Shown: positions 28,746 through 49,300, counted from the first letter of the stretch. The stretch: 64,000 nucleotides of DNA from Spirochaetia bacterium (GCA_965215345.1 CBDCDL010000001.1:320163-384162), one strand, 5' to 3'. Translations and numbers: made by a program. The notes: generated by a model not told the origin, from the letters alone.

Positions 28746-28785
28746 CTCCGGGGACGACTCACCGTAGAAGCCCTGCTTCAGGATC
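28720..28785 (+). repeat. Copy 1 of a ~66-nt imperfect direct repeat. It spans the vapC 3' end and stop.
   Basis: CACGCCGCTCCGATTCCGCAGGATGACTCCGGGGAC... is repeated at 29483-29549. The first 36 nt are identical, with ~7 mismatches afterwards. Confidence 0.6.
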
Positions 28786-29466
28786 TCAGGATCGCACGAA
28801 GGCTCCGGGCTGTATCGACGCCTGCTCGGCCCAGTCGAGGTAGGCATCCAGTCGATGGACCAGGTAGTACGGCAGGTTGAGCAGTCGGAAGCGTCGTCCG
28901 GTCGGCGTCACCGCCGGGTGCAGATCGATGCCGCCGTCCCACACGCGCACCGCCAAGTCGTGATCGACCCGTTCCATGAACTGATGCAGCGAGCGCAAGG
29001 TGCCGGCCTTTCCTGACTTGACCTCGATCGGGATCAGCCGGCTGCGGTGCTGGTACAGGAAGTCGACCTCGGAGCTTGACCCCCGCTGCTGGCGCACCCA
29101 GAACAACGGCATGGTGTGCGACCGCAGGTTCGCGGCGATCAGTTCCTGCCCCACGAGGTGCTCTGCGATCCGGCCCCGATAGACCGCGCTCAGCTCGGCG
29201 ATGCTCAGAAGTGCGTCCTGCACGCCGGCGCGGTAGTTCACGAGTCCGGTGTCCAGATAGAGCAGTCGCGGCGACTTGCGCTGATCGGGCAACGCCGGTG
29301 GCGGTCGACGACCGTGGTCTTGCCACCTGACGTGCGCCGCGCAGCACCAGGGGCTTGCGTTTCGTGGGGTCCGAGCACGCCACGCACGGAGCAGATCGAG
29401 TATCTGACGAGAGATCGTGGAGAATGGCGGCAATAGGTAACGTGTCTTGTCAAGGAATGACGGCAA
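28786..29466 (-). pseudogene. 5'-truncated ATPase gene remnant. Only the DUF4143-like C-terminal domain of an AAA_14/DUF4143 ATP-binding protein remains; there is no P-loop domain.
   Basis: The ORF contains LLYLDTGLVNYRAG...IPIEVKSGK, typical of the DUF4143 C-terminal module. The first ~60 codons look like junk. Bracketed by the 66-nt direct repeats. Confidence 0.5.
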
Positions 29467-29476
29467 TCCGTGACGA

Positions 29477-30776
29477 TCAGATCACGCCGCTCCGATTCCG
29501 CAGGATGACTCCGGGGACAACTCGCTGTAGGGAACTCTGCTTCAGGATCGCGCGAAGACGCCGCGGCCGCACGATTCTCCGTCGGCTTCCACCGGCTCGC
29601 AGGCCGCCATCTCCCAGCCGTGGAACACGACGCCCAAGCCGACGTGCCGTACCGACGGATGACGGCGGTGCAAGCCTTCGTCCGCCAGGTAGCGGCGCAC
29701 CTGCAGCACCGCCTCCCGCGTCTTCTCCGCCAGCACGGATGCGTGCACGGCCTCGCTCCGCTTTCAGGTACTTGAGCTCGATCACGTAGCCGTACGCCAC
29801 GCCGGGGTAGCGAGCCAGGAACGGCTCCAGGTAGAGGTCGGCGTACCCCTTGTTCAGCTCCTGCTCCGAGTGCAACCGACGGAGAACACCTCCACGTCCT
29901 GGTAGGCGTCGCGCAGGTAGCCGTTGTACCACTCGCGCATCACCTCCAGCGCGGCGTCCACGTCCTGGTCGAACACGCCGTGGTCGCGGTACGTCGCAAG
30001 CAGGCCGCGCACCTCCGCCTCCGTGAAGCCGACCATCTCGTTGAACTTCGGCTTCAGACTGATGTTGCTGCCGATGTTGAAGCCGCTGGTCACGTCGTCC
30101 AGGGTGATCGGCGACACGCCCGTGATGAACAGGCGCTCCAGGCCGCCGTCGCTTCGCGCCGTCGCCGCCTTCAGGGTGGCGAAGAAGTTGCGTAGAAGCC
30201 GCCGCCGTGGGTGAACGACTCGTATGCGTCGGCGCCGCGGTATGCCAACACGGTGTTGGCGAAGTTGTCGTACTCGTCGATGAGCACGTACAGCGGTATG
30301 CCCCGGTCGCCGGCGTACCGAAACAACTCGTTGAGCTTGCCGTCGATCGCCGGCAACGAGAGGATGCGCCGCCTCACATCTTCGCCGAACAGGTCGTGAT
30401 TCCGCTCCAGTGTGCCGCGAAGCTCGGTGTGGCAGTAGGTCTCGAAGCGTTCCTGCAAGGTTTCCAGGGTGTCGTCGAACGCCGAGAAGTCGAAGCGCAG
30501 GACGACGTAGCGATTGCGGTGCTCGGTCGGGTCGGCGCCGATGTCGGTGCCGGCGAAGACCGCCTCGAATGCGTCGGCGCGGGTGCGGTCGTAGTAGTTC
30601 TCCAGCAAGGAGACCCAGCAGGTCTTGCCGAAGCGCCGGGGACGGATCAGCACGGCGTAGTCCACGTTCTCCAGCTCGCGCAGAAAGCGGGTCTTGTCCA
30701 CGTAGAGGCGCTGTTGCAGCCGAATCCTCTTGAAGCTGGCCACGCCGTACGGAATGCGGGGATAGGAGGCACGCAT
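29477..30776 (-). pseudogene. Frameshifted pseudogene of an AAA-ATPase-like plus PD-(D/E)XK nuclease (PDDEXK_9-type) protein. It is a distant paralog of the intact tandem copies at 54-58.9 kb.
   Basis: Three consecutive minus-strand ORFs (30776->30171, 30117->29854, 29932->29477) in different frames. The first reads MRASYPRIPYGVASFKRIRLQQRLYVDKTRFLRELENVDYAVLIRPRRFGKTCWVSLLENYYD... (N-terminal family signature). The last reads YVIELKYLK (nuclease core). Confidence 0.7.
29483..29549 (+). repeat. Copy 2 of the ~66-nt direct repeat.
   Basis: See copy 1. Confidence 0.6.
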
Positions 30777-30872
30777 TGGACCGGAACGACCTGAGTATAG
30801 CGCGACTCGGCAGGCGATCGACGCACGTGGACGGCGCGGCTACCTGTGAGCCGTCCGGGTGGCTGTCAACGC

Positions 30873-33248
30873 TCAGGAGCGCACGAAGACGCCGCGGCTG
30901 ATGAGCTTGCGGCGCACGGCGGGCGTCAGGTCGGTCCCTTCGGTCAGTTCCACGACGCTCTCTGAGAGCAGGCGGCCTCGCTTGCCCACCGCGGCCAGCA
31001 CGCGGGCGGCGGTCTCCACGTCACCGCAATCGACCACCACGGCGGGGCGCACGTCGACCCAGCGCACCTCGACTGCCCAGTCCCGGATCTGACGACCCAC
31101 GTTGGCCGGCAGCGGTTGCTTGGACAGGTCGCCGGCCGCGGCGATCACCTGCTCGGCATCGTGGCCGGCCACCACGGCTCGCTGCACCGACGCCCGGTCG
31201 ATGACGAACAGCGTTCCCACCGACTGCGGGCCTTGCAGCGCGGCGGTGGGCGTCGCGAACGTCCGCGCGAGCACCTGATCGGTCGGTGAGGGCGACAGGA
31301 ACACGATCTCGAAGTTGGGCTGGATGACCGCCTCGCCGGTCTCCTCCGGCGCGTCGAGTTCGAAGTCGTCGACCTCGCCCAGCAGGTAGCGACCGACGTC
31401 GGTCAAGGAGAAGCCGGCGCCGCCGTCGGTCAGAGATCCCAGCGCAGCGCCGCCGAGCGGGATCAGCCGATGGTGCAGGAATGTCAGGAGCGCCATGGCC
31501 CAGAGGCGCTCGCAGCCTTCACGTCCCAGGCGATAGTCCAGGATCAGGGCGGCTTCGTCCAGCAGGGGGTTGCGCTCCTCGCTGTGGAACTCGACGAACG
31601 CCTGCAGATCGACCGTCGCCCCGCGGCCGACCGCGCGAAAGGCATCGATCACACCCCGTTCCGGATTGGCGTAGTACCAGATGGCGGACGACTCGTACGT
31701 ACGCGGCAGGAAGCTCAGATGCGCCGCTTCGGCGGGCTGCGGGTCCCAGGGATCGAAAGAGTACGGCTCGGCGGAAGACCGGTCCCTGGCGTCGTCGCGC
31801 AGCAGATCGAGCATGCGCTTGAGCCGCTCCTTGACCGGGAGCATCAGCCATTGCCGGCCGCGAGTCGTCACGACGAGCTTCGAACCGGAGTCGTCGTGCG
31901 CTGCCGCCAGGCTCAGGCCGCACGCGACCTGCGTCGCGTGCGCAACGCGCTGCTCGGGAATGAGCGGCGTCGACTCCGGGGTAACCCACGCGGGCAGCGC
32001 GGAGAGCCGGCGGCCGATGGCGCGGGCGTTGCGGTCGTAGAGAACCTGCGTGCCGGCCCTGAGTCGGGGAGGTTCGGCGATCGCTTCCATCAGGAGCGCC
32101 GTCACGTCGTCGATCAGGAAGGGCCGGCAGAGCACCTCGTCGCCGGCGAACCTCCCCTCCGTCGGCGACGTGGGCCGTCCGCGCTGCAGGCGTGTGAGGA
32201 TGGGCGGCCAGATGTCGATGAACGGCAGCAGGACCGCGTCGACGGCGATCAGCAGCAACGCCTCGCGGGACGCGAATGCCAAGCCGGCTGCCAGCGCGTC
32301 GCGGCGCGAGGTGTCGCTGGCGGATTCCACCAGGTCGCTGATCGCGACCGGGCCGTCGTTCGCCATCACGGCGCCGATCAATTCCTGGGCGGTCGCGACG
32401 GCGGCCGGCGGCGCCTGTTGCCAGCGGCCCGGGGCGTCGAGTGCCGCGAGTCGAGGAAGGGGGGCAGGTTCGGAGTCGACCGATTCGGCCGTGGCCAGCA
32501 GCCGGCGCGCCGCACCGTAGTCGTCGTCGGTCGTGCCGAGCTGCAGGCCGCGCTCTGCCAGCCTGTTCCTGATTTCCTCAAGGGACAGGCGACCGAGATT
32601 GTAGGCCGTGAGGATTTCTTCCTCGCTCTTCCGGGTCAGCTCACCGATCGTGCGGATGTCCTCATTCCGCAGGCAGTTGCGCGATCTCGCCGACAGGTCC
32701 AGAGCATCGACGGACGTGTCGAGCAGAGTGCGCAGCCGCTCGTCCCCGTCGTCCGGCGCGTCATGGCCGCCGAGCTCGTCCTCGACAACCGGTTCGTCGT
32801 GCGCTGCTCGGCCCTTCCAGTCCAGGAACTGGCGCCACCAGTCCACTCGGCCAAGGGCGTAAGCGAGCCGGTAGCGGTCGCTGAATCGACGATCGCGGTC
32901 AAGGCGCGAGATCTCCTCCGCCGTGTAGTGCTGCAGCAGATAGTCCGCGAGGGGTTCGACGTCGGCGTCTCGGGCGGCCACGGATGCGTCGGGGAACGGC
33001 GTCGCGCGGGACAGTTCGCGGATCAGCTTCAGCCAGAACCGCCTGGAGTGCGGTACGAGGTACCGGGAGGCGCTCTTCGTGGGCACCGGCTCCAGCCAGC
33101 CCAGATCGATCAGCGCGTCGTCGCCGGTTCGCGCCCGGTAGCCGGCCCGGACACGATCGATCAGGAAGCGGCGCTGCTCGATCGTCGGCGCCTCCCACTT
33201 CGGCAGCAGGTCGAAGACCTCGCGCCAGTCCACGTCCAGCAGCTTCAA
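30873..33248 (-). CDS. Large (~791 aa) XPB-associated protein containing an RNA polymerase alpha-subunit C-terminal-domain-like helix-hairpin-helix motif. Otherwise uncharacterised.
   Basis: TTG start at 33248 overlaps the XPB stop (TTGA). The 212 Arg/Gly-rich N-terminal codons of ORF 30873..33884 are rejected. Motif LDLSARSRNCLRNEDIRTIGELTRKSEEEILTAYNLGRLSLEEIRNRLAERGLQLG (~32520-32700) closely parallels E. coli RpoA CTD [55 protein letters not shown]. Confidence 0.6.
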   Translation of the reverse strand: MKLLDVDWREVFDLLPKWEAPTIEQRRFLIDRVRAGYRARTGDDALIDLGWLEPVPTKSASRYLVPHSRRFWLKLIRELSRATPFPDASVAARDADVEPLADYLLQHYTAEEISRLDRDRRFSDRYRLAYALGRVDWWRQFLDWKGRAAHDEPVVEDELGGHDAPDDGDERLRTLLDTSVDALDLSARSRNCLRNEDIRTIGELTRKSEEEILTAYNLGRLSLEEIRNRLAERGLQLGTTDDDYGAARRLLATAESVDSEPAPLPRLAALDAPGRWQQAPPAAVATAQELIGAVMANDGPVAISDLVESASDTSRRDALAAGLAFASREALLLIAVDAVLLPFIDIWPPILTRLQRGRPTSPTEGRFAGDEVLCRPFLIDDVTALLMEAIAEPPRLRAGTQVLYDRNARAIGRRLSALPAWVTPESTPLIPEQRVAHATQVACGLSLAAAHDDSGSKLVVTTRGRQWLMLPVKERLKRMLDLLRDDARDRSSAEPYSFDPWDPQPAEAAHLSFLPRTYESSAIWYYANPERGVIDAFRAVGRGATVDLQAFVEFHSEERNPLLDEAALILDYRLGREGCERLWAMALLTFLHHRLIPLGGAALGSLTDGGAGFSLTDVGRYLLGEVDDFELDAPEETGEAVIQPNFEIVFLSPSPTDQVLARTFATPTAALQGPQSVGTLFVIDRASVQRAVVAGHDAEQVIAAAGDLSKQPLPANVGRQIRDWAVEVRWVDVRPAVVVDCGDVETAARVLAAVGKRGRLLSESVVELTEGTDLTPAVRRKLISRGVFVRS

Positions 33249-34987
33249 ACGGTCGGCTCCCGCACCGTCCCGCCGGCGTCGGCGATCGCCTCCGCTACCG
33301 CGGTCGTCGTCACCCGCTCCGCCTCCGGCGCGTCGACGATGGCGTACTCGTAGCCCTGTTCGCACAGGAAGCGCTGCCGGTTCATGGCGAACTCCTGCTC
33401 GACGGTGGCCGCGCTGACCAGCGAGTAGAAGTGCGCCTGCACGCCGTCGCTCTTGGGACGCAGGATGCGGCCCAGGCGCTGCGCCTCCTCCTGGCGCGAG
33501 CCGAAGGTGCCGGAGACCTGGATGGCGACGTTGGCGTCCGGCAGGTCGATCGCCAGGCTGCCGATCTTGCTGACCGCCAGGCAGCGGATCTCGCCGTCCC
33601 GGAACGCCTGGAACAACGCGTCGCGGCGTCTCTGCGAGGAGGTTCCGGTGAGCACCGGGATGTCGAGCGCGTCCGCCAAGCCCTTGATCTGGTCCACGTA
33701 CATCGCCATCACCAGGATGCGGTCGTCGCGGTGGAGCTGCAGGAGGGCGCGCACCAGCTCCCGCTTGTGCGGATTCTGCGCCGCGATCGGGAACTGCTGC
33801 CGGGGGGAGACCGCCGCGTACTCCAGGCGCAGCGCCGGCGGCAGCGGCAGGCGCATCTCCGTGCAGTGGGCGGTGGCCACCCATCCCTGACGCTCCAGCT
33901 CGCGCCAGGGGACCTCGGCCTTCTTCGGCCCGATCAGGGCGAACACGTCCTCTTCCCGGCCGTCCTCGCGGACCAGGGTGGCGGTCAGTCCCAGCCGGCG
34001 CCGCGCCTGCAGCGCGGCGGTGATCTGGAACACCGGCGCCGGCAGCAGGTGCACCTCGTCATAGACGATCAGGCCCCAGTCGGCGCGGTCGAACACCTCC
34101 AGGTTGACCATCGCCTCGTCGCCGCGCCGGCGGTGGGTGAGCATCTGATACGTGGCGACCGTGAGAGGCCGCAGCGCACGCTGCGGGCCGGCGTAGATGC
34201 CGATCTGCTCCTCGGTCAGCGTGGTCTTGTCCAGCGTCTCGGCGATCCACTGCTTGGCGGCCGTGACGCTGGTGCAGAGGATCAGCGTGGTGGTCTGCAG
34301 CGCGTGCATGCAGGCCAGGCCGACGATCGTCTTGCCGGCGCCGCACGGCAGCACGATGACGCCGCTGCCGCCGGCGGAGTGGCGCACGTCCTCGAAGGCG
34401 CGCGCGGCCTCGGCCTGGTAGTCGCGCAGCCGGAACGGCAGACTCGCACGGGTCGTGTGGCGCAGCGCGAACGCCAGCGGCGTGCCGGCGGTGTAGCCGG
34501 CCTCGTCATCCGGCGGGAAGCCGGCGCGGACCAGCGCCAGCTTCAGCAGCCCGCGGCGCTCGGCGTCGACCTGGAACGTGCGCCGGCCGGTGCGGTCGCC
34601 GAGCCACTTGGACACGTCGCGGTTGCGGCGGGCGATCTCCAGGGACTCGTCGTCATGGGACTCGAGCACCAGGCCGTCGTCGCCTGCGAGCAGCCGCAGC
34701 TTGCCGAAGCGTGCCGCGTGGGTGTTGATCTCGACGAGCGTCGCGTCCGGCACCGGATAGCGGCTGAACTCGTGCAGGGTGGCGACGATGTCGTCCACCG
34801 TGACGCCGGCGGAGCGGGCATTCCAGATCGACAGCGCCGTCATGCGATAGGTGTGGACGTGCTCGGGCGCCTTGATCAGCTCGGCGAAGGCGAGCAGGCG
34901 GGAGCGCGCCTCCTCGAACCGGGGACTGGCCACCTCCAGCAGCAGCGTGTCGACACCCTGGACGATGAGGGGTTGGTCAGAGGCCAT
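33245..34987 (-). CDS. XPB/ERCC3/Ssl2-type superfamily-2 DNA helicase.
   Basis: Start at the internal Met MASDQPLIVQ (cat at 34985-34987, frame-checked); 580 aa. Motif I LPCGAGKT; RDYQ; motif II DEVH; XPB-type N-terminal damage-recognition-like domain. The 48 upstream codons of the ORF are Arg-rich and rejected. Confidence 0.85.
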   Translation of the reverse strand: MASDQPLIVQGVDTLLLEVASPRFEEARSRLLAFAELIKAPEHVHTYRMTALSIWNARSAGVTVDDIVATLHEFSRYPVPDATLVEINTHAARFGKLRLLAGDDGLVLESHDDESLEIARRNRDVSKWLGDRTGRRTFQVDAERRGLLKLALVRAGFPPDDEAGYTAGTPLAFALRHTTRASLPFRLRDYQAEAARAFEDVRHSAGGSGVIVLPCGAGKTIVGLACMHALQTTTLILCTSVTAAKQWIAETLDKTTLTEEQIGIYAGPQRALRPLTVATYQMLTHRRRGDEAMVNLEVFDRADWGLIVYDEVHLLPAPVFQITAALQARRRLGLTATLVREDGREEDVFALIGPKKAEVPWRELERQGWVATAHCTEMRLPLPPALRLEYAAVSPRQQFPIAAQNPHKRELVRALLQLHRDDRILVMAMYVDQIKGLADALDIPVLTGTSSQRRRDALFQAFRDGEIRCLAVSKIGSLAIDLPDANVAIQVSGTFGSRQEEAQRLGRILRPKSDGVQAHFYSLVSAATVEQEFAMNRQRFLCEQGYEYAIVDAPEAERVTTTAVAEAIADAGGTVREPTV

Positions 34988-35174: not shown

Positions 35175-35282
35175 ATGAATGCAGCGGTGTCGGAGAAGGG
35201 TCGGATCACCATGCCCAAGGCACTGCGAGAGCGGCTGGGGACCGCTACGCGCCTGCTTGATGAAGGGCGCGGGGAGCGGTGA
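35175..35282 (+). pseudogene. Truncated AbrB/MazE-fold antitoxin stub (35 codons) with no toxin partner.
   Basis: MNAAVSEKGRITMPKALRERLGTATRLLDEGRGER then stop. KGRITMPKALRERLG matches the AbrB-type swapped-hairpin N-terminus. Not in the ORF track (under 60 aa). Coordinates are approximate to +/-1. Confidence 0.3.
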
Positions 35283-37258: not shown

Positions 37259-38260
37259 TCAGAGTTCGAACAGGCGGGCGGCGTTGCCCCAGAACACGTC
37301 TTCGACCTGCCGGTCGGTGAGCCGCTCCGCCCAGCAGGCCCACTTCACCGAGCGCAGATGCTCCAGGACGATGGAGACCGGCTTGATCGTCATGTGCTTC
37401 TCCTCCCAGACCGGCGCATCGTCGTAGACCCAGAAGAAGGTGTCGGCGACCGCGGCGTGGCGGCCGTGGCTGTGGCTGGCGGCGCCGAAGTCGGTGCCGA
37501 ACATGAAGCGGTCGTGGCCGAAGATGCGCATGATCGCCACGTGCGCCATCGGCTCGCAGTTGGCGCTGGAGTCGAAGTACAGGTTCGGCAGGTCGGCCAA
37601 CTCCGGAAGCCCCTCGAAGTTGTGGGACGGCTGAAAGCCGCGCGCCGAATGGGCGAGGATGAGCTTCATGTCCGGGTAGCGCTCGCAGTAGGTGCGGATC
37701 CAGTGCTGGTTGCCGGGGTCGGCGACCGCCCGGTCCTTGACCATGTGCAGGGTCACGTACCACCCCTCCTCGTGCGCCACCTGCATCACCGCCTCCGGCA
37801 GGTACTCCGGGATCTCCGAGTCCAGAGTCGGCGTGCGCAGCGAGAAGGTGTGGTAGCACTTGAGCCCGCGCAGGCCGAGCCGGCGGGCGTGCTCGCGCAC
37901 CCACTCCGGGTCGTCCTCGGGCTTGACCAGGAAGGCGCCTCGGCAGGTGGGCTTGCCGGCCAGGGACGCTCCGACCCACTCGCTGACGCTCAGGGTCTGC
38001 TCCCGGTGCTTGACGATCGGTTTCGGCAGGAACCAGGCGCCGAGCGTCCGGTCCGGGAACACCTCCCGGCTCAGGCGCAGGTAGTCGTCGCTTCCCATGT
38101 CGGCGGGGAAGCCGGGAGGCAGCGGGGCGGCGTAGGCGTCGCCGCGCCACAGGTGGGCGTGGCAGTCGAACACCTTGTCGGGGACGAAGGAGGCCAGCTC
38201 GCGTTCGAAGAACTCGCGGTCGTGGTCCTGGTAGGCATGGTCGCCGGTGTACTTGATCAC
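37259..38260 (-). CDS. Amidohydrolase-2 family (TIM-barrel metal-dependent hydrolase). The start is uncertain: GTG at 38260 or TTG at 38296.
   Basis: Only the C-terminal half of ORF 37259..39292 is real; the N-terminal half is antisense to the Gfo gene. Motifs FDCHAHLW, ILAHSARG, MFGTDFG. Confidence 0.75.
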   Translation of the reverse strand: MIKYTGDHAYQDHDREFFERELASFVPDKVFDCHAHLWRGDAYAAPLPPGFPADMGSDDYLRLSREVFPDRTLGAWFLPKPIVKHREQTLSVSEWVGASLAGKPTCRGAFLVKPEDDPEWVREHARRLGLRGLKCYHTFSLRTPTLDSEIPEYLPEAVMQVAHEEGWYVTLHMVKDRAVADPGNQHWIRTYCERYPDMKLILAHSARGFQPSHNFEGLPELADLPNLYFDSSANCEPMAHVAIMRIFGHDRFMFGTDFGAASHSHGRHAAVADTFFWVYDDAPVWEEKHMTIKPVSIVLEHLRSVKWACWAERLTDRQVEDVFWGNAARLFEL

Positions 38261-38365
38261 GTGCCGGATGGTAGGGGCGGAAAGCGAGCGTGCCAACCGC
38301 ACGTCCCGCAGGTGGTGACGCCGGGCCGGTACCCAAGCGAAGGCCGCTCCCGTAAGCTGCGGACG

Positions 38366-39358
38366 ATGGCTGAGAAGATACGGATCGGTCTGATCGGATA
38401 CGGAGGCTGGACGCGCACTGCCTACGTGCCGGCTCTCCAGGCCGACGGACGCGCGCGGGTCGTGGCGGTGGCCGCACCCAGCGCGGAAACCCGAGAGCGC
38501 GCGGGGCGCGAGCTGGGGCCGGAGGTTGCGGTGTACACGTCGGCCGCTGAGCTGCTCGCCGGCACCGCGGTGGACGGCGTGATGATCGCCGTGTCGGAAG
38601 CCGCGCACGCGGAGGCGATCGGCGCCGCGCTTGACGCCGGCACGGCCGTCCTCTACGAGGGGCCGCTGGCCGCCACTCGGGCTGAGATCCCGGCGATGAT
38701 CGAGCGCCTGGAGTCCGCGCGCGCTCCCACGCACGCCGACATCGAGCTTGGCTTCCTGCCGGTCGTGCGGCGCGCGGCGGAGCTGGTCGCGGACGGGACG
38801 GTGGGCATCCCGCAGTTCGCGGAGGTGCGGCTGGAGTCCGACTGGGGCGCGCTGCCGGAGGAGGACCTCTGCAAGGTGGACCACCTGGCGCCGTGGTACG
38901 TCGATCCGCTCGACCGGGTGCTCGGCAGGACCGCGGCGCGCGTCCTGACCATGGACGGCTCGGGATCGGCCGGCCGGGCGCAGGCGCAGAGCGCCATGCA
39001 GCTCGATTACGGTGGTTGCTGGGGCACCTTCGCCGTCAACACCGGTGCCGTGTCCGGCCCCGACATGCGCATCGCGGTCACCGGCACCGCCGGCGACGTG
39101 CGCGTCGACCTGCTCACGGGCGGACTGCGCTGGCGCAGCGCCGACAGCCCGGCCTGGACGATCGAAACCTGCCCGCCGATCGAGCCGATCCTGGGACTGC
39201 CCGGCATGCACGAGTGCGTGCGCGCCTTCCTGGACTGCATCGAGTCGGGCACGGAAGGCGAAGCGGGCCGCCATCGCGTCGCCCGCCTGCACCGGGTGGG
39301 CCTGGCTGCCGAGCGGTCCCGGGACACGGGCGCCTGGGTCGAGGTCGAACGGCCGTAG
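38366..39358 (+). CDS. Gfo/Idh/MocA family NAD(P)-dependent oxidoreductase.
   Basis: Start at the internal Met MAEKIRIGLIGYGGW (frame-checked); 330 aa. N-terminal Rossmann GLIGYGGW...VVAV; C-terminal GFLPVVRR. Confidence 0.85.
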   Translation: MAEKIRIGLIGYGGWTRTAYVPALQADGRARVVAVAAPSAETRERAGRELGPEVAVYTSAAELLAGTAVDGVMIAVSEAAHAEAIGAALDAGTAVLYEGPLAATRAEIPAMIERLESARAPTHADIELGFLPVVRRAAELVADGTVGIPQFAEVRLESDWGALPEEDLCKVDHLAPWYVDPLDRVLGRTAARVLTMDGSGSAGRAQAQSAMQLDYGGCWGTFAVNTGAVSGPDMRIAVTGTAGDVRVDLLTGGLRWRSADSPAWTIETCPPIEPILGLPGMHECVRAFLDCIESGTEGEAGRHRVARLHRVGLAAERSRDTGAWVEVERP

Positions 39359-46283: not shown

Positions 46284-46373
46284 TGGTCATCTCGCCGAGC
46301 ACGGCCGTCGCGTGCCGACGTGCGTGCGTGCACGCTATTCCCGGCACGTCGAACGCTCACGGAGGTGCGGCCG

Positions 46374-49300
46374 GTGAGTGAACAGGACAAGGTTACGACG
46401 CCGAAAGACACCGCTCAGCGCAACCGATGGCGCGCCCTGATTGCTGGTTGTCTGGAGATCAAGGCGCGGTTCGAAGGAACGTTCGTGACGCTTGCGAAGA
46501 TCCTGAATACCCCCGTTCTGCTGCCGTTGATCGGCGGGTTGACATTCGTCGTCGTGTTTCATTTCGCGTACTCCGGCGTGGACGATGATCTGTATCAGGC
46601 TCGTGACGACGGTGTCATCACGCTGAGTCATGCCCGGAATCTCGTGGAATACGGGTTCATCGGAGTGAATCCTTCTGGAGGCCGTGTCGAGGGATACTCC
46701 GCGCCGGTTCAGTTCTTCCTGTTCGCCGCCGTGTACGCCGTTACGGGCACGGGCTACGCCGCTTACGCGACGGCACAGACCGTAGTCGCCACCTTCCTGC
46801 TGGGTGCGCTGTTCATACTGTTCTTCAGGAAGCGGAAGGTTCCGAGCCTGATCCTGACAGGGCTGGCTGCGCTGTTGCTCGCGTACGCCCGGCCGTTCAT
46901 CGAGTGGCATGGTTCGGGAATGGAGAACGCGATCACGCACGTACTCTTCCTGGCCACCGTGCTGACACTGGTCTCGTTTGTGCGGATGGAGCGGATCATC
47001 TACCCGCTGTCCTGCGTCGTGTTTCTGGCGACGATTTCGAGAATCGAGAGCATCTTCCACGTCGGCCCGCTGCTGGTCGTGTTCGGCGTATTCTGGCTGC
47101 TCGCGCTCCGGGACTGGCGCGGCATCCGCTTTGCGTTCGTCGTGCTAGGGCTGTGGGCCCTGTTCCAGGTGTGGCGGTATCACTATTTCGGCGAGTTACT
47201 GCCCAATACCGCCCACGCCCAGGGAATCTCCGTGTTCGACAACCTGCGCCCGTGGCTACGGTTGGACGTGGATCACATGCAGCGCGCTGCCACCCGTGCC
47301 CGGGACATGCTCGAGGTGCACGGCGGTATTGTGCTGCTGTTGGCGCTTCCAGCCACGCTAGTGGTCTCCCGCCGCCGGGAGACCGTCCTGTTGCTGCTCC
47401 TCATAGGTACTTTGGTCCTGACCGCCGCGCTTAACGAGTCGGTGTTCGGTCGCGACCGGATCGACCCGAACCGCACGACGACCCATGTGGCGGTGTTCTC
47501 AGCGCTGGGCAGCGCCCTGTTGCTGTTCGCCTGCCTTGACAACCGCCGGCGTGCATTGTGGGCCGCCCCGGCGCTCGGGCTGGTCGTGGTTGTCGTGTTC
47601 GGTATGAACGTCGTTCCTCCCTATCACTTGGGCTGGTCGACTGCCTCTTTCGAAATCCATAGAGACAAGTTCGCCGACATCGCGGCGGCAGAAGATCTAC
47701 CCCGAGCGACCGTAGCGAATCCTGATCTGGGCGCGATGAGCTACCACAAGCAGTTCAACATCGTGGATCTAGGGCGCATCGGTTCACCGATCATGGCGCG
47801 GACGTCGGGACCTGTCAGAGCCGACTATTTATTTGATTTCGCGGCCCCCGACATCATCGAGAGTCACTCCGCGTGGTCATGTGGTTACGATGGGGAGCTG
47901 TTCTCCGACCCCCGATTCGAGAAGCGGTATCAACCCGTTGAGACTTGGGTAACGGACTGGACCAGGAAGTGGTGTACATCCAACCCGGAATCCCAGTCCG
48001 GCTTCTGGATTCGTTCCGCGATTCTCAAGTCTTCGGAGTCCGCGGAGCGGCAGCTCATCGACCGGATGGCCGCGGACCCTTCCGCCGAGCGGCTCCGCGA
48101 CGAGCTGGCGAAGTGCCAGGCGATAGAGGACCCTGATTATCAGAATTGCGTGTACGTCGCCAGAACGGCTTGGCGGTTCCTGCCGGAACTGCGAAAGCAG
48201 CGCCAAGTCGATGCGCTCGACGATATCTTTTCGTCGAGCCTCAGCGCCGCCTTTGACCGCTCTCTCATCAACGGCCACCGCGACGGCCAGGCTCATCGCG
48301 ACGCCGTCGAGTTCATATGGGACAACTACCTGCGTGAGATCACAGACCGACAGCCGACCGTCAGCTCCGAGTTCGACGTGTATCTCGACGGGGAGGAGCT
48401 GATCTACGTCAAGCGGGGGTGCAGCGAGGAGGCCGTCACGCTGCCGTTCTTCGTGCACCTGATGCCGGTCGACCGGAGCGACCTGCCCGAGCATCGCAAG
48501 CAATACAAGTTCGACAACCTGGACTTCAGGTTCGAGGATGCCGGCGGCGTCAGAGAGGGCGATGTGTGCGCGGTAACGCGGAGGCTCCCGGACTACGAGA
48601 TCGCCGAGGTCAGAACCGGCCAGTACGTCTCCGGCGGCGAGCAGACGTGGAAGGTGAAGTTCCAGCCGGGTCAGACGCCGCCGGTACGCTCCCTGCTGGA
48701 CCGCATCGAAGCGCTGGACGGACCAATCATCAGCTCGGAGTTCGACGTATACCTCGACGGAAAGGAGCTGATCTACGTCAAGCGGGGGTGCAGCGAGGAG
48801 GCCGTCGCGCTGCCGTTCTTCGTGCACCTGACGCCGGTCGACCGGAGCGACCTGCCCGAGCATCGCAAGCAATACAAGTTCGACAACCTGGACTTCAGGT
48901 TCGAGGATGCCGGCGGCGTCAGAGAGGGCGATGTGTGCGCGGTAACGCGGGAACTCCCGGACTACGAGATCGCCGAGATCACAACCGGCCAGTACGTCTC
49001 CGGCGGGGAGCAGACCTGGAGGGTGGCATTCTCGACGGGCGGCACACCGCCACAGCCACAGCAGATCGCGACAGCGGCAGCGCAGCACGTCGGCACGGTC
49101 AGCGAGCAGCGTGAGACCGAGGAGGTCGTCGGCATCGACTCCCTCGTGGAACGCATCGAAGCGCTGGGAGGCCCCGTCGTCAGCTCGGAGTTCGACGTAT
49201 ACCTCGACGGAAAGGAGCTGATCTACGTCAAGCGGGGGTGCAGCGAGGAGGCCGTCACGCTGCCGTTCTTCGTGCACCTGATGCCGGTCGACCGGAGCGA

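What the first reader, a model, noticed from the sequence alone, without database searches (positions are those of the whole stretch)
30873..34987. XPB helicase translationally coupled to a 791-aa partner carrying an RNA polymerase alpha-CTD-like motif
The XPB/ERCC3-type helicase (motifs I, II DEVH and the XPB N-domain) ends in TGA overlapping the TTG start of a large protein. That protein's only recognisable element is a ~55 aa stretch strikingly similar to the RpoA C-terminal domain (LDLSARSRNCLRNEDIRTIGELTRKSEEEILTAYNLGRLSLEEIRNRLAERGLQLG), the module that binds UP-element DNA and activators. Archaeal XPB works with the Bax1 nuclease. This could be the bacterial functional analogue, or a DNA-targeting or transcription-coupled factor. 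I know of no characterised XPB partner with an alpha-CTD-like fold.
Basis: partly seen in the sequence, partly recalled or inferred. Interest (0 to 1): 0.65.

Follow-up and report, generated by a model that had tools for sequence, protein, structure and literature searches.

The report
Bacterial XPB with p52-like partner
The large protein coupled to this bacterial XPB helicase is a full-length relative of p52/Tfb2, the subunit that holds and tunes XPB in the eukaryotic factor TFIIH, and in one small bacterial lineage it has also picked up a DNA-binding domain copied from RNA polymerase.

Summary
An XPB helicase (33245-34987, minus strand, 580 aa) ends in a TGA that overlaps the TTG start of a 791-aa protein (30873-33248). 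That protein carries a genuine RNA polymerase alpha C-terminal domain (aCTD) (Pfam E 5.6e-19).

The interpretation needs correcting in three ways.
- **The aCTD is not the only recognisable element.** The partner belongs to a large bacterial family: 932 clusters at 50% identity, typically about 670 aa. Sequence profiles and a confident AlphaFold model both identify it as a homologue of TFIIH p52/Tfb2. The top 20 Foldseek PDB hits are all p52/Tfb2, and the match runs along its whole length.
- **The family is almost always next to XPB.** It sits directly downstream of XPB in 68 of 73 informative loci, and 43 of 69 junctions show the same 4-nt stop/start overlap. No nuclease or Bax1-like feature was found.
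- **The aCTD is a lineage-specific cassette.** It is a 114-aa insert on acidic linkers, found only in one clade of high-GC genomes labelled Spirochaetia. It has been lost repeatedly there, even between proteins that are 90-94% identical.

Most likely the partner binds the XPB N-terminal domain and regulates its ATPase as p52 does, with the aCTD acting as an optional DNA tether or transcription-factor tether. I found no paper describing a bacterial p52 homologue.

The parts
33245..34987 (-). XPB/ERCC3-type SF2 helicase-translocase gene (580 aa)
   Evidence: NCBIfam NF045503 scores 784 bits (cut-off 610). Pfam finds ERCC3_RAD25_C, ResIII and Helicase_C. The protein scores 290 bits to human and yeast XPB but 127-150 bits to archaeal XPBs. 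It is 91-98% identical across the 8 related genome loci.
34592..34969 (-). XPB N-terminal domain (aa 7-132). In TFIIH this is the domain that pairs with the p52 clutch.
   Evidence: Pfam Helicase_C_3 at E 4.2e-31. Its role in TFIIH is taken from PMC6422496.
33245..33261 (-). Coupling junction: GGGAG (33261-33257), 8 nt, then TTG (33248-33246) overlapping TGA (33247-33245)
   Evidence: Read directly from the sequence. The same 4-nt NTGA overlap occurs in 43 of 69 related loci and in all 8 genome loci.
30873..33248 (-). p52/Tfb2-like XPB partner gene (791 aa including the aCTD cassette)
   Evidence: A family profile against PDB sequences gives Tfb2/p52 as best hits (E 6e-6). Pfam Tfb2 is hit by 26 of 70 members and Helicase_C_3 by 70 of 70. 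The AlphaFold model has pLDDT 84.6. The top 20 Foldseek PDB hits are all p52/Tfb2, with E down to 8e-9.
32814..33248 (-). N-terminal winged-helix-like domain (aa 1-145)
   Evidence: The model shows a helix-helix-helix-hairpin-helix arrangement with pLDDT mostly 85-97. It is conserved across the family: W8, W18, Y103, W137.
32445..32810 (-). Facultative cassette (aa ~147-268): acidic linker, aCTD, second linker
   Evidence: It is a clean in-frame indel relative to close relatives. P0015 and P0016 differ by exactly 114 aa while the rest is 90-94% identical. It is absent from 149 other family representatives.
32553..32735 (-). RNA polymerase alpha C-terminal domain (helix-hairpin-helix) proper, aa 172-232
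   Evidence: Pfam PF03118 at E 5.6e-19. PDB RpoA aCTDs match with E down to 3.7e-15. The R265 and G296 equivalents are invariant in 20 of 20 copies. In the shallow-alignment model this region had pLDDT 75-82.
31359..32438 (-). Array of three winged-helix-like domains (aa 271-630)
   Evidence: Model secondary structure and pLDDT above 90. The region aligns colinearly with the N-terminal and middle parts of p52 in Foldseek, which gives about 530 aligned columns.
31044..31343 (-). Clutch-like domain (aa 636-735), a paralogue of the XPB N-terminal domain
   Evidence: Pfam Helicase_C_3 covers aa 654-753. HMMER aligns family profile positions 516-586 with yeast Tfb2 residues 334-405. The most conserved motif of the family, VQPNFE(I/V)VFL, lies here.
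30876..31043 (-). C-terminal beta-alpha-beta-beta-alpha module (aa 736-791), at the position of the p52 C-terminal domain that binds p8
   Evidence: DSSP on the model gives E737-740, H744-757, E758-760, E765-768, H776-784. Equivalence to the p52 C-terminal domain is inferred from position only. There is no Tfb2_C or Tfb5 sequence hit.

Best explanation
This is a two-gene, translationally coupled operon. It encodes XPB and a bacterial homologue of p52/Tfb2, the TFIIH subunit that recruits XPB and regulates its ATPase.

**Shown.**
- The partner family has the p52 architecture: winged-helix domains, then a 'clutch' domain that is a paralogue of the XPB N-terminal domain, then a small C-terminal module.
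- It is genomically locked to XPB.

**Inferred, core mechanism.** The clutch domain pairs with the XPB N-terminal domain as in TFIIH. This holds the helicase and tunes its ATPase and translocase activity. The winged-helix array supplies DNA or protein contacts.

**Inferred, this lineage.** An RNA polymerase aCTD was inserted between the first and second winged-helix domains on flexible acidic linkers. This mirrors how aCTD is tethered in RpoA itself. The key DNA-contact arginine (R265) and the hairpin glycine (G296) are invariant. The aCTD most likely acts as a swinging DNA anchor at the minor groove of A/T-rich DNA. That would give the complex a second fixed point, so that XPB translocation can twist or open DNA, or it would direct the complex to promoter-proximal DNA.

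The cassette is accessory, because near-identical proteins exist without it. Some genomes carry both forms in tandem after a single XPB gene.
For: **Identity of XPB and the junction.**

**p52 homology, three independent lines.**
1. A profile of 85 diverse family members against all PDB sequences gives yeast Tfb2 (E 6e-6), C. thermophilum p52 (0.003) and human p52 (0.04) as the best hits, ahead of XPB itself (0.18).
2. Pfam Tfb2 PF03849 is hit by 26 of 70 members, best E 5.4e-7. Helicase_C_3 is hit by 70 of 70.
3. An AlphaFold model (pLDDT 84.6, pTM 0.76) retrieves only p52/Tfb2 chains as its top 20 PDB matches. E-values run from 8e-9 to 5e-3, with 19 of the 20 at or below 6e-4. About 530 columns are aligned, which is the whole of p52. 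XPB N-terminal domains come next.

**Pairing.**
- XPB is immediately upstream on the same strand in 8 of 8 genome loci and 60 of 80 metagenome loci.
- Only 5 loci with upstream DNA lack it.
- 43 of 69 junctions have the 4-nt overlap.
- No third conserved gene was found.

**aCTD.**
- R265 and G296 equivalents in 20 of 20 copies, and 30 of 61 residues identical to E. coli.
- The cassette is bounded by low-confidence acidic linkers.

**Accessory nature of the cassette.**

**Stable chromosomal locus.** The flanks are 87-94% identical at the DNA level in 7 related genomes.

[quoted passage not shown] It activates and limits the XPB ATPase (PMC7708078).

**Weak external hint of a transcription link.** M. 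tuberculosis delta-ercc3 is hypersusceptible to rifampin (PMC10534295).
Against: - No physical evidence of a complex. No complex prediction could be run.
- The window protein itself does not reach the Pfam Tfb2 threshold. It has only a faint TIGR00625 hit (E 0.09), so homology rests on family profiles and a predicted structure.
- Foldseek TM-scores are low (0.14-0.39) because domain orientations differ.
- No p8-like gene is conserved nearby. No homologues of other TFIIH subunits were seen next to the pair.
- The aCTD DNA determinant is only partly kept. The N268 equivalent is present in 12 of 20 copies. The K298 equivalent is present in 3 of 20 and is usually Leu.
- The cassette has been lost repeatedly. 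It may therefore add little, or it may bind protein rather than DNA.
- The partner evolves much faster than XPB: 59-89% versus 91-98% identity. This is unexplained.
Confidence: 0.62

Rival explanations
1. The core is the same XPB/p52-like complex, but the aCTD cassette works as a protein-protein adaptor rather than a DNA anchor. It would present the surface that transcription activators or sigma normally contact on RNA polymerase. This would recruit XPB to regulated promoters or stalled polymerases, giving a transcription-coupled repair or remodelling factor. Alternatively it would act as a decoy.
For: In RpoA, aCTD is the contact point for activators as well as for DNA (established knowledge). 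The DNA determinant is only partly conserved here: K298 is usually Leu and N268 is variable. The E286/E288-equivalent acidic patch is well kept, with E or D in 20 of 20 copies. M. tuberculosis ercc3 mutants are hypersusceptible to rifampin (PMC10534295).
Against: The 261 determinant that contacts sigma is not conserved: D259 is replaced by A or T, and position 261 is variable. R317 and L318 of the 287 determinant are replaced. R265, the main DNA-contact residue, is invariant. No partner regulator gene is conserved in the neighbourhood.
Confidence: 0.2
2. The aCTD cassette is a nearly neutral passenger. It would be a domain duplicated from rpoA into a disordered linker, tolerated and now decaying, with no role in the function of the complex.
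For: It sits in a linker and is flanked by low-confidence segments. It has been lost at least three times within the clade, including between proteins 90-94% identical. The family outside this clade works without it.
Against: It stays a high-scoring aCTD (68 bits) in both divergent paralogue clades A and B, whose other parts are only about 60-70% identical. The fold-critical and DNA-contact residues are invariant. Where two paralogues sit in tandem, the second always keeps it. These points argue for purifying selection.
Confidence: 0.1
3. The pair is an anti-phage or other conflict system. XPB would be the motor and the fast-evolving partner the sensor or specificity subunit.
For: The partner diverges far faster than XPB. 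Copy number varies: there are tandem paralogues, and one metagenome-assembled genome has two operons (L005 and L008). Decayed ATPase and nuclease genes lie next to it in the window. There are weak similarities to PglW and PbeA models.
Against: - No PADLOC system matches beyond generic helicase similarity, apart from a weak PglW match over partner aa 120-299, a stretch that contains the aCTD.
- There is no effector such as a nuclease or toxin.
- The locus is syntenic among metabolic and transporter genes in 7 related genomes.
- There are no relatives in viral contigs or viral structures and none on plasmids.
Confidence: 0.06
4. The partner is the bacterial functional analogue of the archaeal Bax1 nuclease.
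For: Only the analogy of a large gene coupled to XPB.
Against: No DUF790 or other nuclease family appears in 70 members. No Bax1 chain is among the 50 Foldseek matches listed, although XPB-Bax1 structures are in the PDB. The invariant residues are mostly hydrophobic, Gly, Pro or Arg, not a catalytic set.
Confidence: 0.02

Closest known systems
Eukaryotic TFIIH XPB-p52(Tfb2)-p8 submodule
   Same: - The XPB here has the eukaryote-type N-terminal domain.
- The partner has the p52 domain order, with winged helices, a clutch and a small C-terminal module.
- The clutch is a paralogue of the XPB N-terminal domain.
- This XPB scores about twice as high to human and yeast XPB as to archaeal XPB.
   Different: - It is a two-gene bacterial operon. 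No p8, p34, p44, p62 or XPD was seen next to it.
- The partner is about 200 aa longer than p52.
- In this clade it carries an inserted aCTD.
- Binding and ATPase regulation are untested.
- Sequence identity to p52 is only 11-14%.
Archaeal XPB-Bax1 helicase-nuclease
   Same: XPB is encoded next to a dedicated partner that presumably forms a stable complex with it.
   Different: Bax1 is a nuclease of an unrelated fold (DUF790). The partner here shows no nuclease fold or motif. Archaeal XPBs are the more distant relatives of this XPB (127-150 bits versus 290 bits).
RpoA C-terminal domain (aCTD)
   Same: It is the same Pfam domain, well above threshold. 30 of 61 residues are identical to E. coli. 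R265, C269 (mostly), G296 and S/T299 are kept. It hangs on flexible linkers as in RpoA.
   Different: It is not attached to an alpha N-terminal domain or to RNA polymerase. K298 is usually Leu and N268 is variable. The 261 and 287 determinants are largely replaced.
Mycobacterial XPB (Ercc3, Rv0861c) and its neighbour
   Same: Both are bacterial XPBs of the eukaryote-like type, with weak in-vitro helicase activity (PMC3353954). [quoted passage not shown]
   Different: I could not fetch the mycobacterial sequences. Whether Rv0862c belongs to this family, and in which gene order, rests on my memory and was not tested. No aCTD is expected there.

Membership tests
XPB/ERCC3/Rad25 helicase | Full-length match to the curated XPB model above its cut-off | tested here: met
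   NF045503 scores 784 bits against a cut-off of 610. TIGR00603 scores 335 against 328.7.
XPB/ERCC3/Rad25 helicase | Walker A, DEVH and RED motifs, plus the N-terminal XPB domain | tested here: met
   PCGAGKT, DEVH and VREDG are present in the translation. Helicase_C_3 covers aa 7-132 at E 4e-31.
TFIIH p52/Tfb2 | Clutch domain homologous to the XPB N-terminal domain, located in the C-terminal third | tested here: met
   Helicase_C_3 is found at aa 654-753 and in 70 of 70 family members. The family profile aligns to Tfb2 residues 334-405 at E 6e-6.
TFIIH p52/Tfb2 | Sequence match to the curated Tfb2 family models at their thresholds | tested here: inconclusive
   The window protein has no Pfam Tfb2 hit and scores E 0.09 to TIGR00625, far below the cut-off. 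Of 70 relatives, 26 hit PF03849, best E 5.4e-7.
TFIIH p52/Tfb2 | Overall fold colinear with p52 (winged-helix array, clutch, C-terminal module) | tested here: met
   The Foldseek top 20 are all p52/Tfb2, with about 530 aligned columns and probability 0.97-1.00. This is based on a predicted model of pLDDT 84.6. TM-scores are low because of domain orientation.
TFIIH p52/Tfb2 | C-terminal module that dimerises with p8/Tfb5 | tested here: inconclusive
   A beta-alpha-beta-beta-alpha module is predicted at aa 736-791. No Tfb2_C or Tfb5 sequence hit was found. No conserved small gene lies downstream.
TFIIH p52/Tfb2 | Binds the XPB N-terminal domain and modulates the XPB ATPase | not testable with these tools
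   Only genomic linkage is available: 68 of 73 loci, and a 4-nt overlap in 43 of 69.
RNA polymerase alpha C-terminal domain (PF03118) | Domain match above Pfam's gathering score | tested here: met
   68.1 bits against 23.8. PDB RpoA hits reach E 3.7e-15.
RNA polymerase alpha C-terminal domain (PF03118) | The '265 determinant' for UP-element DNA: R265, N268, C269, G296, K298, S299 | tested here: inconclusive
   Counts in 20 copies: R265 20, G296 20, C269 15, N268 12, S/T299 20, K298 3. That sequence is consistent with the PDB alignment range.
RpoA (the polymerase subunit itself) | aCTD joined to the alpha N-terminal dimerisation domain | tested here: not met
   RpoA models match only aa 166-249 of the protein, scoring 80 bits or less against cut-offs of 227-523.
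Bax1 (DUF790) XPB-associated nuclease | DUF790 or nuclease fold and catalytic residues | tested here: not met
   No such Pfam hit in 70 members. No Bax1 among the 50 fold matches listed.
Known anti-phage defence systems (PADLOC) | Match of both proteins to the models of one system | tested here: not met
   There are only partial generic helicase matches (PbeA) and a weak PglW match over partner aa 120-299, a stretch that contains the aCTD.

The most novel reading that the evidence does not exclude
Bacterial XPB plus its p52-like partner is a free-standing, minimal TFIIH-like DNA-opening module. It would act on the bacterial transcription machinery, for example in ATP-driven promoter opening, clearance of stalled polymerase, or transcription-coupled repair. 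The aCTD-bearing form would be a natural experiment in which the module is wired directly to promoter-upstream DNA or to activators. A corollary is that the XPB-p52 core of TFIIH has a bacterial counterpart, and possibly a bacterial origin. This fits with bacterial XPB being much closer to eukaryotic than to archaeal XPB.
Probability: 0.12. Interest if true: 0.9.

Novelty: new variant of a known kind. Interest (0 to 1): 0.62.

Why it matters
The cellular role and the partners of bacterial XPB have been open questions since its discovery. [quoted passage not shown] A 2026 review still calls the bacterial function elusive (PMC13024598).

A widespread p52-like protein locked to XPB gives an obvious missing cofactor to test. 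Purified mycobacterial XPB is a poor enzyme on its own. The finding also bears on where the XPB-p52 core of TFIIH came from. The aCTD-bearing variant provides a concrete handle for asking whether the module works on promoter DNA or with the transcription apparatus, through DNA-binding assays or ChIP.

Tried and rejected
- **First structure prediction.** It used only 15 close relatives and failed (pLDDT 45; only the aCTD folded). It was replaced by an 85-sequence alignment.
- **The search for homologous proteins with the diverse alignment.** It returned only close relatives.
- **The search for homologous proteins with the aCTD segment alone.** It returned one fragment. The donor of the aCTD could therefore not be traced, and no mycobacterial member was retrieved.
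- **Plasmid search.** It found only rpoA genes.
- **Viral contigs and viral structures.** No relatives.
- **PADLOC.** No system.
- **Search for a third conserved gene or a small p8-like ORF.** Nothing beyond close relatives.
- **Promoter and terminator scan of the operon.** Nothing.
- **Literature.** Six searches found no description of a bacterial p52-like protein, of Rv0862c, or of PF13625 function.
- **Rejected readings.** Bax1 analogue, RpoA paralogue, mobile or defence element, chance motif.

Full report
**1. What is at the coordinates**

The window has about 70% G+C, so raw ORF lists are full of shadow frames. Third-position G+C picks out two minus-strand genes here: XPB with GC3 0.95 and the partner with GC3 0.87, uniformly 0.82-0.91 along its length.

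XPB (33245-34987, 580 aa) matches the curated XPB equivalog at 784 bits against a cut-off of 610. It has the XPB N-terminal domain (Pfam Helicase_C_3, aa 7-132), ResIII, Helicase_C and ERCC3_RAD25_C. Walker A, DEVH and the RED motif are present.

On the minus strand the junction reads gtTTGAag. The partner's TTG (33248-33246) therefore overlaps the XPB TGA (33247-33245), and a GGGAG lies 8 nt upstream. All close homologues begin at the same M/V/L-KLLDVDW.

The 791-aa partner carries a real aCTD. Pfam RNA_pol_A_CTD matches aa 172-232 at E 5.6e-19, and several RpoA equivalog models match the same stretch. Forty-three PDB RpoA sequences match, including E. coli residues 253-319 at E 3e-12.

**2. 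The partner is not an orphan with one motif**

Pfam also finds Helicase_C_3 at aa 654-753. This is the same domain family as the XPB N-terminus. NCBIfam gives a faint Tfb2 hit at aa 636-733.

An exhaustive HMMER search with a profile lacking the aCTD found 932 clusters (50% identity) at E<=1e-3 and 301 at E<=1e-30. Nearly all are full-length proteins of 640-730 aa. Source names are 'hypothetical protein', 'helicase-associated domain-containing protein' or 'Helicase conserved C-terminal domain'. Where an organism is named, the sources are Spirochaetaceae, Acidobacteriota, Planctomycetota and Pirellulales.

A profile of 85 diverse members searched against every PDB sequence gives TFIIH Tfb2/p52 as its best hits: yeast 6e-6, Chaetomium 0.003, human 0.04. 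These rank ahead of the XPB N-terminal domain (0.18). The aligned region is the p52 'clutch'. Scanned one by one, 70 of 70 members hit Helicase_C_3 and 26 of 70 hit Pfam Tfb2, best 5.4e-7.

**3. Structure**

A first model from 15 close sequences was useless except for the aCTD. With the 85-sequence alignment the model reached pLDDT 84.6 and pTM 0.76. Only the aCTD cassette and its linkers (aa 149-270) were of low confidence, as expected because 84 of the 85 rows lack them.

Foldseek against the PDB returned p52/Tfb2 chains from TFIIH, pre-initiation and excision-repair complexes as all of the top 20 hits. E-values run from 8e-9 to 5e-3, with 19 of the 20 at or below 6e-4, and probability is 0.97-1.00. 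About 530 columns are aligned, which is the whole length of p52. XPB chains come next, through their N-terminal domain. TM-scores are low (0.14-0.39), which I attribute to different relative orientations of the many domains. Neither Bax1 nor any other nuclease is among the 50 matches listed.

Read together with the secondary structure, the layout is as follows.
- aa 1-145: winged-helix domain.
- aa 146-270: acidic linker, aCTD, second linker.
- aa 271-630: three winged-helix-like domains.
- aa 636-735: clutch.
- aa 736-791: a beta-alpha-beta-beta-alpha module at the position of the p8-binding C-terminal domain of p52.

The last equivalence is positional inference only.

**4. Is the pairing conserved?**

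Yes.
- In 8 genome loci, all titled 'MAG: Spirochaetia bacterium', XPB lies immediately upstream.
- In 80 diverse metagenome loci recovered through the family motif (V/I)QP(N/D)F(E/D)(V/I)(V/T)F, XPB lies upstream on the same strand in 60.
- Fifteen loci have no upstream DNA, and only five with upstream DNA lack XPB.
- In 43 of 69 junctions the partner's start overlaps the XPB stop by the same 4 nt, and 57 of 69 are within 30 nt.
- Clustering of all ORFs and of small downstream ORFs found no third conserved gene. There is no nuclease and no p8-like protein.

**5. The aCTD is a clade-specific, facultative cassette**

An HMM of the cassette finds it only in the 15 clusters closest to the window protein. 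None of the other 149 representatives has it, and only 1 of 70 members in the Pfam scan has it.

In alignment it is a clean indel between the first domain and the rest. P0015 and P0016 are 90% identical before it and 94% identical after it, and they differ by exactly 114 residues.

A neighbour-joining tree built without the cassette columns shows two clades. Clade B contains the window protein and is all aCTD-bearing. In clade A, aCTD-bearing and aCTD-less proteins are interleaved. The outgroups lack the cassette. This pattern fits one gain followed by at least three losses.

At one and the same syntenic locus the genomes differ. The flanks there are 87-94% identical at the DNA level.
- XPB then aCTD-less partner: L006-L008.
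- XPB then aCTD partner: the window and L004.
- XPB then aCTD-less partner then aCTD partner in tandem: L001 and L002. L003 has only a partial first copy.

One metagenome-assembled genome has two operons, one of each kind (L005 and L008). XPB is 91-98% identical across these loci, whereas the partners are 59-89% identical.

**6. What the cassette keeps**

Counts are out of 20 copies.
- R265 and G296 equivalents are invariant.
- S/T299 is always present.
- C269 is present in 15 and N268 in 12.
- K298 is present in 3 and is usually Leu.
- The sigma-contact positions 259 and 261 are not kept. R317 and L318 of the activator-contact patch are also not kept.
- E286 and E288 stay acidic.

So the fold and the principal minor-groove arginine are under constraint, but the domain is not a faithful copy of a UP-element reader.

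**7. Context**

The operon sits among ordinary metabolic and transport genes. These include ABC permeases, glyoxalase, aldo-keto reductases, an aminotransferase, a UbiA prenyltransferase and a fatty-acid oxidation enzyme. The position is conserved in related genomes. There is no match to a known defence system, no relatives in viral contigs or viral structures and none on plasmids. The 2.1 kb of broken ATPase and nuclease genes downstream is an insertion peculiar to the window.

**8. Mechanism**

*Shown.* XPB and a p52-fold protein are co-encoded and translationally coupled across a broad bacterial family. The partner's clutch is a paralogue of the XPB N-terminal domain.

*Established for TFIIH.* p52 recruits XPB through a pseudo-symmetric dimer of exactly these two domains (PMC6422496). 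p52/p8 both activates and limits the XPB ATPase (PMC7708078).

*Inferred.* The bacterial pair forms the same clutch and the partner regulates the motor. This would explain why purified mycobacterial XPB needs a large molar excess to work (PMC3353954). The aCTD, tethered on acidic linkers as in RpoA, most likely adds a mobile DNA anchor. Alternatively it acts as a protein adaptor, or is a passenger.

The tandem paralogues invite the idea that the C-terminal modules dimerise as p52 and p8 do. That is speculation. A weak external hint of a transcription link is the rifampin hypersusceptibility of M. tuberculosis delta-ercc3 (PMC10534295).

**9. Comparison and novelty**

This XPB is much closer to eukaryotic XPB (290 bits, aligned from residue 5 to 552) than to archaeal XPBs (127-150 bits). 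That the bacterial enzyme is eukaryote-like has been noted before: PMC3353954 cites a 1997 note on an XPB/ERCC3-like helicase in Mycobacterium leprae.

What I could not find in the searchable literature is any statement that bacteria have a p52/Tfb2 homologue next to XPB. The 2012 paper says the opposite. A 2026 review calls the bacterial function elusive. Six searches were negative. Subscription-only papers and database notes may exist that I cannot see.

I therefore file the family as a bacterial member of the p52 kind, and the window protein as a new variant of it carrying an inserted aCTD. The Bax1 analogy is rejected.

**10. Limits**

Homology to p52 rests on family-level profiles and a predicted structure, with 11-14% identity. 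No complex model or experiment was possible. The taxonomic label comes from record titles. The mycobacterial neighbour (Rv0862c) was not examined. The faster evolution of the partner relative to XPB remains unexplained.

Noticed in passing
window 28750-30872: About 2.1 kb lies between the partner's stop and the ABC-permease genes. It is absent at the syntenic site in seven related genomes. It holds broken minus-strand ORFs for AAA-ATPase_like (30171-30776), PDDEXK_9 (29477-29932) and DUF4143 (28786-29466). These look like decayed ATPase and nuclease genes inserted here.
   Followed up: partly
window 35176-35241 (+): The first ~22 codons of the glyoxalase ORF read MNAAVSEKGRITMPKALRERLG, which looks like the N-terminus of an AbrB/SpoVT-type antitoxin (my recognition; not run against any profile). 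Stretches of about 100 nt that are 81-83% identical lie downstream of the operon in L002 (8971-9073), L003 (8746-8846) and L004 (9058-9164). This may be a remnant of a toxin-antitoxin module that has moved or been rearranged.
   Followed up: partly
L069 316-1757; L077 3074-4515; L082 632-2022; L087 3542-4033; L060 682-1443: In five metagenome loci, one to three small conserved ORFs (about 150-200 aa, no Pfam hit) are wedged between XPB and the p52-like gene. One of them (MTDEQRLIEKLQRIEALFAGAATPGERDAAAQAR...) is shared by all five. L060 also has a PRiA4_ORF3 gene there.
   Followed up: partly
L001 3973-8388; L002 3971-8367; L003 4729-8403: There are tandem paralogues of the partner after a single XPB gene. 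The first lacks the aCTD and the second carries it. In L002 the two paralogues are themselves joined by a 4-nt overlap. In L003 the first copy is only partly matched, from residue 369.
   Followed up: partly
L001-L008 versus window 30873-34987: The partner evolves much faster than its helicase. XPB is 91-98% identical across loci, whereas the partners are 59-89% identical at the same syntenic site. I have no explanation for this.
   Followed up: no
window partner aa 120-299 (about 32352-32891): There is weak similarity to the BREX/Pgl kinase PglW models at profile positions about 750-918 (NCBIfam E 1.3e-3; PADLOC E 1e-5). This suggests PglW may contain an aCTD-like helix-hairpin-helix region.
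   Followed up: no
window 46320-50321 (+) and 50204-53278 (+): Two very large ORFs (1333 and 1024 aa) have no Pfam hit. They lie in a stretch of lower G+C (62-65%) than the rest of the window.
   Followed up: no
window 37259-39292 (-): A 677-aa ORF with a coding-like G+C pattern (GC3 0.84) has no Pfam hit. It lies two genes from the operon.
   Followed up: no
whole window and L001-L008: The record titles call these genomes Spirochaetia. They have about 70% G+C, and their chromosomes or contigs are up to 7.4 Mb, which to my knowledge is unusual for that class.
   Followed up: no
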